Shown one piece after another: positions 26,123 to 33,869 of a DNA stretch of 64,000 bases; positions within the stretch are counted from its first letter, which is position 1, and every line of letters begins with the position of its first letter. The notes under the pieces are model-generated. The model was not told the origin of the DNA. It saw only the letters and a program-made list of their open reading frames with translations, and did not search any database. Position numbers and translations under genes: made by a program. Source of the DNA: a virus; IMG/VR virus record IMGVR_UViG_3300021962_008382, positions 1 through 64,000 of that record; one strand, written 5' to 3'.

Positions 26123-26230
26123 GATACCCCCCATGATATAGATCATGTATAGCTAAGGTTAGCAAATTGGGGATCATCAGAAACATAACAATGAAACTAA
26201 TCTTGTTCATTGCTGCCTCTATAGAGAATG

Positions 26231-26510
26231 TGCTGGTTGATTCTGTTGCCAAGTTCAACCAGCAAAACTCCGACTAATGCTTAAGCAGCAAGAGCCAGGT
26301 TATAAACGTCATCGTTTGCGTTTATTTTAAGTTTAGTTTTTACGTCTACTCTGACGATTCTCCACATGCCTTCAGTCGTCTGTCGAATCCAGAACAGCCC
26401 CATCAAATAACCTCTCAGCCGACCTTTCGGTATTCTACGGAGAGAGGCCATTTGGTGGAGCTGGGGGGAGTTGAACCCCCGTCCAAACTTCCTATTACAT
26501 GCTTCAACGA
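26231..26510 (-). ncRNA. ssrA: Circularly permuted (two-piece) tmRNA
   Basis: The acceptor piece GGACGGGGGTTCAACTCCCCCCAGCTCCACCA (ends 26453) precedes the coding piece that starts GGGGCTGTTCTGGATTCGAC (26401); G3.U70 pair; tag ANDDVYNLALAA* at 26319-26281; outer ends approximate. Confidence 0.92.
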
Positions 26511-26534
26511 ATACTATATAACCATTATTTATGG

Positions 26535-27545
26535 TTATGCTGGCTCCGGTACCCCTTCCGGTAGTGTTATAGATGATGGAATACCAATAAGATTCATAAA
26601 ATCACAGAACGTAAAGGTAATCCAATCTACTAACGCACTTAAACCTATTGCATTAAAGAAAGAAGTTACTAAATTCATCCATTCTTGAATAAGCTTCTTA
26701 GGAAATTCAACAGCAAAGTTTCTAAGCGATTCTACAATTCTATCTATAATTCTTTCAGGATTAGTAATTTTATCTCTTATCTCCCCACCTATCATAGTGA
26801 GTACGTTAAAACCAGCAATAGTTAAATTCTCTAGTTGTTGTATCTTTTCTTGAGCAGTAGTTTCAAGATTGCTAAGTATGGAATCTATTAACCCTGGTAT
26901 GTCAATCACAGTAAGTGTCGGCAAGGCAGGTAGACCTAAAGAGTTCCACGTACTTTGAAATGTAGATATAAGTGTTCCTAGCTTCTGATAAAGTAAGTTT
27001 AATAAACCACCGTTAATTAAACTTACAAAATTAGACCATGCAGCTTCTACCTTTAATGCTAAACTATCATAACCATACTTACCAGTAAACGACTGGAAGG
27101 AACTTTCAATGCTAGAAATAAAGGTATCTATATCTTCAGCTATTTGTGCTTTGAGGTTCTGCACATATTCTTTATCTGTAAAGATCTTCACGATATCAAC
27201 AGTAATACCTAGAACATTGATAGACAGTGTTACCGGAATTACAGTTGATATAATCTCAATCATTTTAGCCATTACATAACCGTGAAACTCTTGAACAACG
27301 CGGGTCATTTTTGCTTCCCACTCAAACTCCGGGCATTCAAAGTTAATATAAAAGGGATCTGAAGACCCCATCGGGAAGTTACCCAAGGCTGATTCAATAC
27401 TGTCGAGCAGTTGCTGAACTTTGAGCGCTTCCTCTTCTAGCCCCTGAATAATGAGCTCAGACGGCAGTCGCGCTAAATCAACAAACGTATTTACTAAATT
27501 AGCTTTAGTTGGGAAGAACGTTGCTTGGCAGATTGGTTGTTCCAT
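26535..27545 (-). CDS. Hypothetical protein (helical, possibly structural)
   Basis: 336-aa ORF; no motif recognised. Confidence 0.65.
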   Translation of the reverse strand: MEQPICQATFFPTKANLVNTFVDLARLPSELIIQGLEEEALKVQQLLDSIESALGNFPMGSSDPFYINFECPEFEWEAKMTRVVQEFHGYVMAKMIEIISTVIPVTLSINVLGITVDIVKIFTDKEYVQNLKAQIAEDIDTFISSIESSFQSFTGKYGYDSLALKVEAAWSNFVSLINGGLLNLLYQKLGTLISTFQSTWNSLGLPALPTLTVIDIPGLIDSILSNLETTAQEKIQQLENLTIAGFNVLTMIGGEIRDKITNPERIIDRIVESLRNFAVEFPKKLIQEWMNLVTSFFNAIGLSALVDWITFTFCDFMNLIGIPSSITLPEGVPEPA

Positions 27546-30210: not shown

Positions 30211-30279
30211 TAGAAGTCTTAGAAGGAATCGAGCCTTCGTCTTCGCAGTTGCGTTGTTTTACCATTAAACTATAAAACT
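30211..30279 (-). pseudogene. Degenerate tRNA-like element lacking an anticodon loop
   Basis: Acceptor AGTTTTA/TAAGACT, D arm and T arm present; anticodon arm reduced to CGCAACTGCG; no CCA. Confidence 0.6.
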
Positions 30280-30693: not shown

Positions 30694-31689
30694 TTAGAAC
30701 GGTTTCGGCTCCGGTGTAGCTTCTGTTGACGGGGGTAGTACCGGTAACGTAATAGTCGGTAACTCACCAGTCAAAGTTTTAAGAAACGCTACGATCTTTT
30801 GTGTTTCTTCCTCACTAAACTCATATCCCAACTGAATCTTACCCATTATGTTTACGGCTTCAGATAAGGTTTTAACTTGACCGTCATGGAAGTAGGGGTA
30901 AGTAAGTTCTACATTTCTAAGCATAGGAACTTTAAATACGTTACGGTCGTCATCGTCGTTAGTTACATCATAGCGACCCTGAGAAGGATTGGCAGTTTCG
31001 TATTCTCCCACAATACCCAACTTCATAAACATCGTACCACCAAAAGTAGGACCGCTGTGGCAGGCTGTACAACCGGTTGTGGTAAACAACTGATAACCAT
31101 CCAGCTCTTCAGGGGTAATAGCTTCTTGATTACCCATCGCAAACTGATCAAATCTAGAATTTGTAGTTACTAATGAGCGCTCAAACTCAGCAATGCTATT
31201 TGCTACGTTATCGATATTAACATATTCTTCTGCGGTAGCTTTACTGTCTGGTGTATCGTAGATATCTTCAAACTCTTGAACATAAGCTGGAATAGACTTC
31301 AATACCGCAATCGTGAGATCATGATTAGATGCCATTTCGCCTGGTTCCTGTATTGGACCTTTAGCCTGCTCTTCTAAAGTAGCAGCGCGACCATTCCAAA
31401 ATTGCGAGGTCTGAAATCCAGAATTAAACACCGTAGGTGAATTCATTCCCACATCTTCCCACTCATGACCAACTGAAGTTTCGAGGTTATCTGTACCTGA
31501 CAATGCAAGATTATGACAAGAATTGCAAGAGATTATGCCTGACTTAGATACTCGTGTATCGAAGAACAGTTTCTTACCCAACTCAACTTTATCTGGATTG
31601 AGATCGTCCGGTGCGACCAGGGTTAAAGCCTGCTGGGCAAGTACCTGGTTAGCAGCTAGTATCGAAAGAGCAAGTAATTTTTTAAGCAT
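30694..31689 (-). CDS. Di-haem cytochrome c peroxidase (CCP/MauG family)
   Basis: Signal peptide, LGKKLFFDTRVS, CNSCH, QFWNGRA, CTACH, FKVPMLRNVELTYPYFHDG. Confidence 0.95.
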   Translation of the reverse strand: MLKKLLALSILAANQVLAQQALTLVAPDDLNPDKVELGKKLFFDTRVSKSGIISCNSCHNLALSGTDNLETSVGHEWEDVGMNSPTVFNSGFQTSQFWNGRAATLEEQAKGPIQEPGEMASNHDLTIAVLKSIPAYVQEFEDIYDTPDSKATAEEYVNIDNVANSIAEFERSLVTTNSRFDQFAMGNQEAITPEELDGYQLFTTTGCTACHSGPTFGGTMFMKLGIVGEYETANPSQGRYDVTNDDDDRNVFKVPMLRNVELTYPYFHDGQVKTLSEAVNIMGKIQLGYEFSEEETQKIVAFLKTLTGELPTITLPVLPPSTEATPEPKPF

Positions 31690-31949: not shown

Positions 31950-31980
31950 TGGTGCCCGAGGCCGGACTTGAACCGGCATG
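31950..31980 (-). pseudogene. 3' fragment of the interrupted tRNA-Leu
   Basis: CATGCCGGTTCAAGTCCGGCCTCGGGCACCA (T arm + acceptor strand + CCA). Confidence 0.85.
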
Positions 31981-31986
31981 TCTTAT

Positions 31987-32073
31987 TGGTGCGGGTGGTG
32001 GGAATCGAACCCACAAGGGATATACCCGACAGATTTTAAGTCTGTTCTGTTTACCTAGTTTCAGCACACCCGC
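31987..32073 (-). tRNA. tRNA-Leu(TAA)
   Basis: ACAGA-CTTAAAA-TCTGT, long variable arm, A73, CCA. Confidence 0.92.
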
Positions 32074-32495
32074 TTATTCTTACCTCTATAGGTGTCTGTC
32101 GTTGCATGACAGTTAGGACAAAGAATACGAAGATTTTCCAATCTATGATCATATGTGTCACCGTTTATATGATCTAGCTCTAGTCCTATTTTAACACCTC
32201 CCCATTCAGAAATCCCGCACATTTCACACTCATTCTTTTTAATACCTTCATCAAAGAGCCTTTTTTTAATTCCTCTTCTCTGGTACTGCGGGTGCTTTCC
32301 TGCTAAAATATCTTCTGTTTCAATTACTGCTGGTCTGACTTTACTTACACCTTTACCAGGCTGATTAGTATTCCATACACCAAGTTTCTTCGCATACTTG
32401 CGATACGTGTCATATTGTATCCCCAGCGATGCTGCCGCTTGAGCAGCTGATGGCAATTTCGATGCTTCAACAATCTTTTCTGCTGTAACTTTCAT
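32061..32495 (-). CDS. HNH homing endonuclease (tRNA-associated type)
   Basis: CEMCG...LELDHINGD..DHRLENLRILCPNCH; RBS GGAGG before MKVTAE. Confidence 0.93.
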   Translation of the reverse strand: MKVTAEKIVEASKLPSAAQAAASLGIQYDTYRKYAKKLGVWNTNQPGKGVSKVRPAVIETEDILAGKHPQYQRRGIKKRLFDEGIKKNECEMCGISEWGGVKIGLELDHINGDTYDHRLENLRILCPNCHATTDTYRGKNKRVC

Positions 32496-32535
32496 AGACA
32501 CCTCCATGTACTATATGTATGTGTCTACTACTTTT

Positions 32536-32562
32536 GAGCGTATACCATTTCACCACTCGGGC
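32536..32562 (-). pseudogene. 5' fragment of the interrupted tRNA-Leu
   Basis: GCCCGAGTGGTGAAATGGTATACGC; GCCCGAG is the exact complement of CTCGGGC in the 3' fragment. Confidence 0.85.
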
Positions 32563-32566
32563 TTAA

Positions 32567-32682
32567 GTGCTAGTCTTTCCTAGCTGTCAATAACGCCACT
32601 GTTCTACCTGTATCTCTCATACCGCTGTTTCAGATATGCAGTTCCCTAATTACTAGGCCACCAGTTAAGGGAGGCGTTATCT
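32567..32682 (-). ncRNA. Candidate structured RNA
   Basis: ATAACGCC/GGCGTTAT closing stem, internal hairpins, terminal GCTAG-GAAAGA-CTAGC; no ORF. Confidence 0.45.
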
Positions 32683-32696
32683 CCACCCATCAATTC

Positions 32697-32846
32697 TTTA
32701 GTTAGTGCTACACTAGGACAAACTTTCCAGTCGATGGCCGATCGTGGTAAGCCTTTGTCAGGGTTATATCAGACTTCGAAGAAGGCCCTTTGATGTCGCG
32801 TAGTTGGTGTTCCTGCCAACGGTACCCCTTGTAGCACTAACTAAAA
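32697..32846 (-). ncRNA. Candidate structured RNA closed by a 16-bp perfect stem
   Basis: TTTAGTTAGTGCTACA / TGTAGCACTAACTAAA enclosing ~115 nt of GC-richer hairpins. Confidence 0.55.
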
Positions 32847-32891: not shown

Positions 32892-33869
32892 TTAAGCTGC
32901 TTTCGAATACTCCAGAGCCAGATCCAACGCTTTCTCTTTCTTAGCTCGGTTCAGACCATACCAGGCCGAAGTCAGGCGTGAATCTTTCGAACGACCCAGC
33001 GTATGATCGGTCATATACGTTACCGTATTGAACGCCTGCCACCAAGACCCTTCAGCAAACTTAGCACCCGGCTGCACATGAATCACAGCCATAGCTTCCT
33101 CAGCATTAGCCGATACGGCAGTTTTGCGAAGATCGATTTTCTTCAGCTCTTCCGGTTCCATGATCGGTGGGAAGACACGATTGAAGTACTCGGTCAGCGT
33201 CTCCTTATTATAACGTTTCGAGCCCAGGTATTTAGCCTGCTCACGATAACCGACCAGGCGATCCTTAGCGATACCTAGAGTCTCTTTCACCATATCACCA
33301 TCAAACTGACTGCGGTGATTCAATCGAACGGCGTGCTTAGCGCGATCCGACAGAGCCATAGTCAACGTATTGTTGCATACTACGCGGACCGGTGTAAATC
33401 GAATATCGATCGAGCGACCGAATTCATGAGGGTTAGAGAAGAGCAGATACCCCTCTACCTTATCCCCACCAAACAGCTCGAACGATTCTTTAATCTGAGC
33501 CAGCGCCCAGACCATCTTACCACCTCGCAAAGAACCAGCCGTATGCATCTCCATATCACCGGTCATTACGAAGTCGTTGAAGAACTCAAAGGCTTCCTGA
33601 TTCTGTACCGGTTTCCAGTTCTTGGAAATAACCGTCAGAAGCTTCTCATCAGAAGTCCGAATCAGAGCTTGCTGATTGGATTTTACCGGGCCGTTAGCCG
33701 TATCGTAGTACAGATCGCGTTTCTCGACCGTCCAATCCAGTCCAGCCGTAATCAACACCTGCTCAGGCGTCAGATCTGCCGGAACTTTCTTACCCAGACC
33801 GTGCCAGGGCGTTTCACCTGCATAGACCATCTGAGCTTCGCCGTTTACAATTTCAAGTTCATGTGCCAT
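32892..33869 (-). CDS. DUF932 / TIGR03299-type phage/plasmid protein
   Basis: PWHGLG, AGLDWTV, TAGSLRGGK.VWALA, TPVRVVCNNTL. Confidence 0.9.
   Translation of the reverse strand: MAHELEIVNGEAQMVYAGETPWHGLGKKVPADLTPEQVLITAGLDWTVEKRDLYYDTANGPVKSNQQALIRTSDEKLLTVISKNWKPVQNQEAFEFFNDFVMTGDMEMHTAGSLRGGKMVWALAQIKESFELFGGDKVEGYLLFSNPHEFGRSIDIRFTPVRVVCNNTLTMALSDRAKHAVRLNHRSQFDGDMVKETLGIAKDRLVGYREQAKYLGSKRYNKETLTEYFNRVFPPIMEPEELKKIDLRKTAVSANAEEAMAVIHVQPGAKFAEGSWWQAFNTVTYMTDHTLGRSKDSRLTSAWYGLNRAKKEKALDLALEYSKAA

What the first reader, a model, noticed from the sequence alone, without database searches (positions are those of the whole stretch)
31950..32562. tRNA-Leu gene split by an HNH endonuclease that carries a replacement tRNA-Leu
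Seen: a 5' tRNA half (GCCCGAG.., 32562-32536) and a 3' half (..CTCGGGCACCA, 31980-31950) form a perfect acceptor stem. Their anticodon/variable region is replaced by ~555 bp holding an HNH ORF and a complete, sequence-divergent tRNA-Leu(TAA). The HNH stop codon lies inside the first 13 nt of the new tRNA, so the two are physically locked together. Inference: a selfish cassette inserts into and destroys a tRNA gene while supplying a cleavage-resistant substitute, i.e. homing without splicing.
Basis: partly seen in the sequence, partly recalled or inferred. Interest (0 to 1): 0.8.

Follow-up and report, generated by a model that had tools for sequence, protein, structure and literature searches.

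The report
Homing nuclease cassette replacing phage tRNA-Leu
A selfish DNA-cutting gene that travels with its own spare leucine tRNA gene has overwritten the middle of a phage's leucine tRNA gene, and related phages show the footprint of its recent spread, so it behaves like a natural 'cut-and-rescue' gene drive.

Summary
Confirmed. In this T4-like phage, a 553-bp cassette (leader, 144-aa HNH gene, complete tRNA-Leu(UAA) whose first 13 nt end the HNH gene) sits between nt 1-25 and the last 35 nt of another tRNA-Leu(UAA). The 24-nt anticodon arm is deleted, so splicing cannot restore it. All 9 members of the closest HNH clade overlap a tRNA-Leu(UAA); 7 lie between halves of resident tRNA genes. 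A relative carries an identical cassette (0/553 differences) beside an 8.5%-divergent flank, as recent homing predicts. Another contig lacks the cassette. The enzyme is homologous (35%) to T5/BF23 HegA (F-TflIV), which stands where a related phage has tRNA-Leu(UAA) but brings no replacement. A D-arm/anticodon motif found in 43/76 background genes is absent from 14/14 passengers, suggesting but not proving resistance. The motif was defined post hoc and has counter-examples. Verdict: a new variant of free-standing (intronless) homing, with a rescue tRNA. I found no paper describing it. This scan noted the same design before on other DNA (about 60 notes).

The parts
32538..32562 (-). 5' remnant (nt 1-25: acceptor strand and D-arm) of the resident tRNA-Leu(UAA) gene
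   Evidence: 24/25 identical to the intact gene in L006; pairs 7/7 with the 3' remnant
32496..32537 (-). Cassette leader, 42 nt, with a T4-late-promoter-like octamer (6/8 here, 7-8/8 in homologues) and the Shine-Dalgarno sequence
   Evidence: The same leader starts after tRNA nt 25 in L029, L030 and L035. Promoter function is inferred from resemblance only.
32494..32528 (-). Predicted hairpin that buries the RBS and the first bases of the start codon
   Evidence: MFE and centroid agree, but z = -1.2, so it is weak alone. Inverted arms are kept by eye in homologues. Same design as T-even homing endonuclease leaders (PMC2988022).
32061..32495 (-). HNH endonuclease, 144 aa (148 aa from the upstream ATG at 32507): N-terminal three-helix HTH-like domain, C-terminal zinc-binding HNH domain; HegA/F-TflIV-related
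   Evidence: H109, N121, H130 and four Cys invariant in 19 sequences; pLDDT 86; 35% to F-TflIV, E 5e-22; dN 0.09 vs dS 0.94 against L029
31987..32073 (-). Passenger tRNA-Leu(UAA), 87 nt, CCA-encoded, with an unusual C10:G25 D-stem pair; the only UAA decoder in the record
   Evidence: This D-stem type is in 1 of 76 background genes. TTA is the commonest Leu codon, 30%.
31950..31984 (-). 3' remnant (end of variable arm, T-arm, acceptor strand, CCA) of the resident tRNA-Leu(UAA) gene
   Evidence: 34/35 identical to L006. The cassette-free contig X7-20 matches up to exactly 31984. The first downstream difference in L550 lies inside it.
32892..33869 (-). Upstream flanking gene, DUF932 (context, not part of the cassette)
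   Evidence: 90% identical and syntenic in L035
31697..31924 (-). Downstream flanking gene, phrog_8676, 75 aa (context)
   Evidence: 87% identical and syntenic in L035

Best explanation
A free-standing HNH homing endonuclease gene and an overlapping tRNA-Leu(UAA) gene form one mobile cassette. (1, inferred) In mixed infection the enzyme is made in small amounts, held down by an RBS-burying hairpin and by 5' processing of the passenger tRNA, which would clip the last codons off its mRNA. It cuts the rival phage's tRNA-Leu(UAA) gene at the anticodon arm. (2, inferred from junctions) On first entry to a new gene, the 5' end recombines through the short D-arm likeness just upstream of the leader, and the 3' end joins with little homology; the anticodon arm is lost and the outer halves remain as scars. 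(3, shown as a footprint) Among close relatives the cassette then spreads by gene conversion using the scars and flanks. (4, shown in sequence) The passenger restores UUA decoding, so no splicing is needed. (5, inferred, about 0.6) The passenger is a poor substrate because it departs from the common D-arm/anticodon sequence, here at the 10:25 pair.
For: Recurrence: all 9 members of the starred clade (100/98) overlap a full tRNA-Leu(UAA); 8 have a 5' remnant and 7 have both. Eight loci give 7/7 acceptor pairing across remnants, from at least six different resident genes. Cassette as a unit: HNH sister pairs share passenger type but not victim or locus (L035+L124, L036+L125, both 99/96). The window's cassette is 84% identical to L029's in another gene context, but 71% to L035's at the same locus, whose flanking proteins are 87-90% identical. 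Homing footprint: L550 has 0/553 differences in the cassette and 60/707 in the downstream genes (Fisher p 4e-16), and the switch lies in the 3' remnant. Cassette-free allele: contig X7-20 is about 98% identical in the flanks, skips 31985-32688 and has 72 other letters there. Cut position: no 5' remnant passes nt 34 and no 3' remnant starts before nt 33. Family: homologous to F-TflIV; in BF23 hegA stands where phage 5 has tRNA-Leu(UAA), with only a 10-nt 3' scar. Resistance: the motif is in 43/76 background genes, 0/14 passengers and 0/27 genes just upstream of homologues; at a matched cyanophage locus 0/18 vs 7/29, p 0.03.
Against: There is no cleavage assay. The motif was defined after seeing the passengers, and sequences are related, so p-values are overstated. 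The window's passenger keeps an ordinary anticodon arm. In L551 and L220 the 5' remnant is of a type that lacks the motif, and in L036/L125 victim and passenger types are nearly swapped, so specificity must drift or be loose. SegB cuts its own genome's tRNA genes in vitro and relies on low expression (PMC2330249), so resistance is not required for homing. The 72 letters of the cassette-free contig were not shown: an intact tRNA there fits the length (49 + 23) but was not read. The footprint rests on one readable contig and cannot give direction.
Confidence: 0.8

Rival explanations
1. Homing without allele discrimination: the enzyme cuts most tRNA-Leu(UAA) genes, its own passenger included. Self-cuts are tolerated through tight expression control and repair. 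Divergent passengers persist only because a passenger resembling the upstream remnant would recombine with it and delete the HNH gene.
For: SegB precedent of self-sites (PMC2330249). The passenger has a standard anticodon arm. Victim and passenger types overlap across loci (L036, L125, L551, L220).
Against: Depletion of the motif also holds for 27 tRNAs upstream of homologues, where there is no remnant to recombine with, and at a matched locus (p 0.03). HegA, which has no passenger, is accompanied by loss of the site in the BF23 tRNA region. L229 keeps a passenger identical to its 5' remnant.
Confidence: 0.3
2. Passive tRNA shuffling: tRNA genes are recombination hot spots, and an HNH gene lying next to a tRNA is carried along when blocks recombine through D-loop and T-loop microhomology, possibly selected for escape from host anticodon nucleases.
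For: Junctions fall in conserved tRNA motifs. L124 shows a T-loop junction that brings in part of another tRNA. Phage tRNA swaps can counter host defence (PMC13096335).
Against: The split genes with matched halves are Leu-type, the same type as the passenger. The enzyme is under purifying selection with an intact active site. The identical tract is centred on the cassette. The family lies beside or within tRNA-Leu(UAA) genes and their introns across distant phages.
Confidence: 0.1
3. The insert is an intron, or the halves are trans-spliced, so the outer gene still works.
For: The halves base-pair in the predicted fold of the whole transcript. Distant homologues do sit in group I-like introns of tRNA genes. 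'tRNA introns that may encode a tRNA' were reported in Lak phages (PMC6784885).
Against: The 24-nt anticodon arm is absent. There is no Rfam intron match even at E up to 5. All 553 bp are accounted for by leader, ORF and tRNA. Junctions vary between homologues, unlike splice sites.
Confidence: 0.02
4. An integrase-type island that restores the tRNA gene it splits.
For: tRNA genes are common integration sites (established knowledge).
Against: No tyrosine integrase in the 159-kb record. The passenger is a whole, 67%-identical gene, not a duplicated att core. 24 bp of the target are deleted.
Confidence: 0.02

Closest known systems
T5/BF23 HegA = F-TflIV, free-standing HNH endonuclease of the T5 tRNA region (Akulenko et al. 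2004, PMID 15456135; not held, cited in PMC10644984 and PMC5714182)
   Same: Homologous: 35% over 125 aa, E 5e-22. hegA stands where phage 5 has tRNA-Leu(UAA), leaving a 3' scar. From memory, not verified here, its site is a 17-bp pseudopalindrome; the sequence I recalled is the anticodon arm of T5-like tRNA-Leu.
   Different: HegA is 227 aa with a C-terminal extension, removes the tRNA without replacing it, and falls on a separate long branch. The window's enzyme carries an overlapping replacement tRNA and leaves both halves.
T4/T6 SegB (PMC2330249; PMC13096335) and intronless homing generally (PMC2988022)
   Same: Free-standing endonuclease in a phage tRNA cluster that cuts tRNA genes; RBS-burying hairpin; its mRNA is clipped at the 3' end by maturation of the next tRNA; it co-converts neighbouring tRNAs.
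   Different: GIY-YIG rather than HNH; recognises the T-loop motif of many tRNAs; sits between genes, not inside a destroyed target; no dedicated cognate replacement.
Collaborative/trans homing and intron-encoded homing in tRNA-Leu(UAA) (PMC2988022)
   Same: A neighbouring element supplies the immune allele. Homologues occur next to intron-containing tRNA-Leu genes (RF00028 in L265, L271, L282) and inside intron-like sequence (L233).
   Different: Here a second tRNA gene, not an intron, preserves function.
'tRNA intron that may encode a tRNA' in Lak and jumbo phages (PMC6784885; PMC13037316)
   Same: Nested appearance: a tRNA between two tRNA halves.
   Different: Those were read as introns with no nuclease described. 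Whether they arise this way was not tested here.

Membership tests
Free-standing phage homing endonucleases (intronless homing) | Nuclease domain of a homing family with intact catalytic residues | tested here: met
   HNH; H109, N121, H130 and four Cys invariant; dN/dS about 0.1
Free-standing phage homing endonucleases (intronless homing) | Not inside an intron or intein | tested here: met
   No intron family match; insert fully accounted for
Free-standing phage homing endonucleases (intronless homing) | Optional presence: relatives lack the gene at the same locus | tested here: met
   Contig X7-20 joins across the cassette; its 72 replacing letters were not shown
Free-standing phage homing endonucleases (intronless homing) | Gene conversion of the gene with flanking co-conversion | tested here: inconclusive
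   Footprint 0/553 vs 60/707 fits, but direction and bias need crosses
Free-standing phage homing endonucleases (intronless homing) | Site-specific cleavage of the empty allele and sparing of its own | not testable with these tools
   Indirect only: motif depletion and junction positions
Free-standing phage homing endonucleases (intronless homing) | Cleavage site distant from the insertion site (PMC2988022) | tested here: inconclusive
   The gene sits inside the inferred target, which would be a departure, but the cut site is unmapped
HegA/F-TflIV | Homology across N-terminal HTH-like and HNH domains | tested here: met
   35% over query residues 16-140, E 5e-22; helical N-terminus in the model
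HegA/F-TflIV | Orthology: full 227-aa architecture and close clade | tested here: not met
   144 aa, lacks the C-terminal part; separate long branch. A relative, not an orthologue.
HegA/F-TflIV | Double-strand cut in the same 17-bp site | not testable with these tools
   Primary paper not held; site recalled from memory only
Group I intron in tRNA-Leu(UAA) | Ribozyme core and complete exons | tested here: not met
   No RF00028 match; 24 nt of exon missing
tRNA-targeting integrative element | Integrase and duplicated att core that restores the gene | tested here: not met
   No PF00589 in the record; no duplicated core

The most novel reading that the evidence does not exclude
A widespread natural 'cleave-and-rescue' homing element: the nuclease destroys the standard tRNA-Leu(UAA) gene, carries a recoded resistant copy of the same tRNA, uses the scars of earlier victims as homology arms to enter non-allelic tRNA genes of unrelated phages, and thereby drives the spread of atypical phage tRNA-Leu sequence types.
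Probability: 0.5. Interest if true: 0.75.

Novelty: new variant of a known kind. Interest (0 to 1): 0.6.

Why it matters
It shows a third way, besides introns and inteins, for a homing endonuclease to sit inside its own target at little cost: carry a spare, recoded copy of a small gene. If resistance holds, selfish nucleases help explain why phage tRNAs are so variable, why odd isotype shapes spread, and why some 'tRNA introns' in large phages look like nested tRNAs. The link to the characterised F-TflIV and to cultured phages with homologues beside tRNA-Leu makes this directly testable. Practically, such remnants can be misannotated as intron-containing tRNAs.

Tried and rejected
An intact allele at the syntenic locus was sought by sequence and not retrieved. 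Searches with the downstream gene in viral contigs and metagenome contigs gave 160 loci, none syntenic. Pattern scans gave intact resident-type genes only in other contexts. The only cassette-free allele is the unreadable joint. No RNA holder was listed, so expression and splicing were not tested. PDB sequence search gave nothing useful; Foldseek gave no match at E 0.001, only weak HNH nucleases such as McrA and Cap5. A scan for the leader 16-mer gave 55 hits, none with a D-arm or HNH. The sigma-70 scan found nothing above shuffles. The F-TflIV paper is not held. Three homologue contexts had no DNA. Literature searches and papers read found no description of an HNH-plus-replacement-tRNA cassette; subscription papers are not covered. 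Intron, trans-splicing, integrase island and assembly artefact were considered and rejected.

Full report
OBSERVATION. The window belongs to a 158,915-bp, 94%-complete virus record with a T4-type gp23 capsid gene. On the minus strand the order is: DUF932 gene, about 330 bp non-coding, tRNA nt 1-25 (32562-32538), a 42-nt leader, an HNH ORF (32495-32061, 144 aa), a complete tRNA-Leu(UAA) (32073-31987) whose nt 11-13 are the HNH stop codon, two spacer bases, the last 35 nt of a tRNA (31984-31950), then a 75-aa gene. The outer pieces match an intact phage tRNA-Leu(UAA) (L006) at 24/25 and 34/35 positions; the 24 nt between them, the whole anticodon arm, are gone. There is no intron match, and exon sequence is missing, so the outer gene is dead. 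The passenger is the only UAA decoder in the record, and TTA is the commonest Leu codon.

THE ARRANGEMENT RECURS AND THE CASSETTE IS THE MOBILE UNIT. Contexts of the closest homologues (66-84% identity) were fetched. All nine members of the starred clade that holds the window's enzyme (100/98) run into the 5' end of a full tRNA-Leu(UAA). Eight have a 5' tRNA remnant upstream and seven have both remnants. Eight loci in all show 7/7 acceptor pairing between remnants, from at least six different resident genes. Passenger type follows the HNH tree (L035+L124, L036+L125; the window is nearest L029, cassettes 84% identical), whereas victims and neighbouring genes do not. L035 has the same resident gene type and gene order as the window (flanking proteins 87-90% identical) but a cassette only 71% identical with a different passenger, which points to separate invasions or replacement at one locus. 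The 5' junction is fixed after nt 25 in four loci that share one leader; in others it lies at nt 33 or 34. The 3' junction varies and in L036 starts at the anticodon loop. No remnant crosses the anticodon, which places the break there (inference).

POPULATION EVIDENCE. Contigs from four other studies were laid on the locus. Three carry the cassette with diverged flanks. One contig (X7-20), about 98% identical in the flanks, leaves the window at exactly 31984 and rejoins at 32689 with 72 other letters. That length fits the 49 missing tRNA bases plus a 23-nt spacer, but the letters were not shown. The same run also holds a contig covering the cassette's 3' junction. L550 (SRR29004165) has 0 differences in the 553-bp cassette and 60 in 707 bp of downstream genes, with the first downstream difference inside the 3' remnant. 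Since the HNH gene otherwise accumulates synonymous change freely (dS 0.94 against L029), this identity indicates recent transfer, as homing predicts. Direction cannot be read.

THE ENZYME. It has a three-helix N-terminal domain and a zinc-binding HNH domain (pLDDT 86), invariant catalytic and zinc residues and dN/dS near 0.1. A predicted hairpin buries the RBS (weak alone), as in T-even homing endonucleases (PMC2988022). The overlap means 5' maturation of the passenger would clip the HNH message, a control proposed for SegB (PMC2330249). A cultured-phage homologue led to T5 hegA; the window's enzyme is 35% identical to F-TflIV over 125 aa. In the BF23 record hegA stands between tRNA-Ile and ORF trn2.3, where phage 5 has a small ORF and tRNA-Leu(UAA); only the last 10 nt of that tRNA remain. 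I recall that F-TflIV cuts a 17-bp pseudopalindrome; the sequence I recalled is the anticodon arm of T5-like tRNA-Leu in over 300 records, but the paper is not held, so this is a lead. More distant homologues lie just downstream of tRNA-Leu(UAA) genes, often intron-containing, or inside intron-like sequence at the anticodon.

IS THE PASSENGER RESISTANT? A motif running from the D-loop GG through the 3' D-stem strand to the anticodon loop (GGTAnACRY, four bases, then the usual anticodon stem-loop core) is in 43/76 unselected viral tRNA-Leu(UAA) genes, 0/14 passengers and 0/27 genes just upstream of homologues. At a matched cyanophage locus the counts are 0/18 with the enzyme and 7/29 without (p 0.03). 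Passengers depart by different routes: a flipped 10:25 pair (window; 1/76 in background), altered D-loop, short-arm type, or altered anticodon stem. Caveats: the motif was set after seeing the passengers; sequences are related; L551 and L220 have remnants that lack the motif; SegB tolerates self-sites. I put resistance at about 0.6.

COMPARISON AND NOVELTY. It works like intronless homing (SegB, F-TflIV) and is a relative, not an orthologue, of F-TflIV. It differs in sitting inside its destroyed target and in carrying an overlapping cognate replacement. It fails the tests for a group I intron and for an integrase island. I found no paper that describes the design; the nearest remark is a possible tRNA within a tRNA 'intron' in Lak phages (PMC6784885; PMC13037316). 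Earlier notes of this scan report the same design in other genomes and for other tRNAs; they are unchecked and are not counted as evidence. Verdict: real, new variant of a known kind, interest 0.6.

Noticed in passing
window 32698-32845 (-) and 32563-32697 (-): Two structured non-coding elements between DUF932 and the 5' remnant. The first is closed by a 15-bp terminal stem. Neither has an Rfam match. Both are absent in syntenic L035; the second is skipped in contig X7-20 and appears in other contigs with different flanks. Possibly mobile small RNAs of phage tRNA clusters.
   Followed up: partly
window 26190-26545 (-): Permuted (two-piece) tmRNA gene. It could rescue ribosomes on an HNH message clipped of its stop codon (speculation).
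   Followed up: no
window 30694-31686 (-): Phage-encoded di-haem cytochrome c peroxidase/MauG-family gene (PF03150, E 9e-56), conserved in L035.
   Followed up: no
window 30214-30279 (-): tRNA-like sequence scored by Rfam (51 bits) but not ARAGORN, with a shortened anticodon arm; possibly another tRNA scar or tRNA-like RNA.
   Followed up: partly
L229:1390-2010; L225; L218: Homologues paired with tRNA-Leu(UAG) passengers. In L229 the 5' remnant duplicates the first 28 nt or so of the passenger itself.
   Followed up: partly
L241, L249, L251: A separate well-supported clade of homologues lies directly before tRNA-Tyr-like genes; L251 has a 5' remnant ending at the anticodon loop, suggesting retargeting to another isotype.
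   Followed up: no
L407-L486: One freshwater-cyanophage-like locus holds a tRNA-Leu(UAA) in many alternative sequence types, with or without a group I intron and with or without a downstream homologue: a natural panel for intron/endonuclease interplay.
   Followed up: partly
L487 (Aeromonas phage avDM4), L489 (Edwardsiella phage PEi20), L490 (Serratia phage Slocum), L488 (Yersinia phage fHe-Yen9-04): Cultured phages with homologues adjacent to or overlapping a tRNA-Leu gene; unannotated in avDM4 and PEi20.
   Followed up: partly
L124:515-690: The 3' remnant is fused through its T-loop to the body of a tRNA-Met-like gene, giving a chimeric tRNA after the passenger.
   Followed up: no
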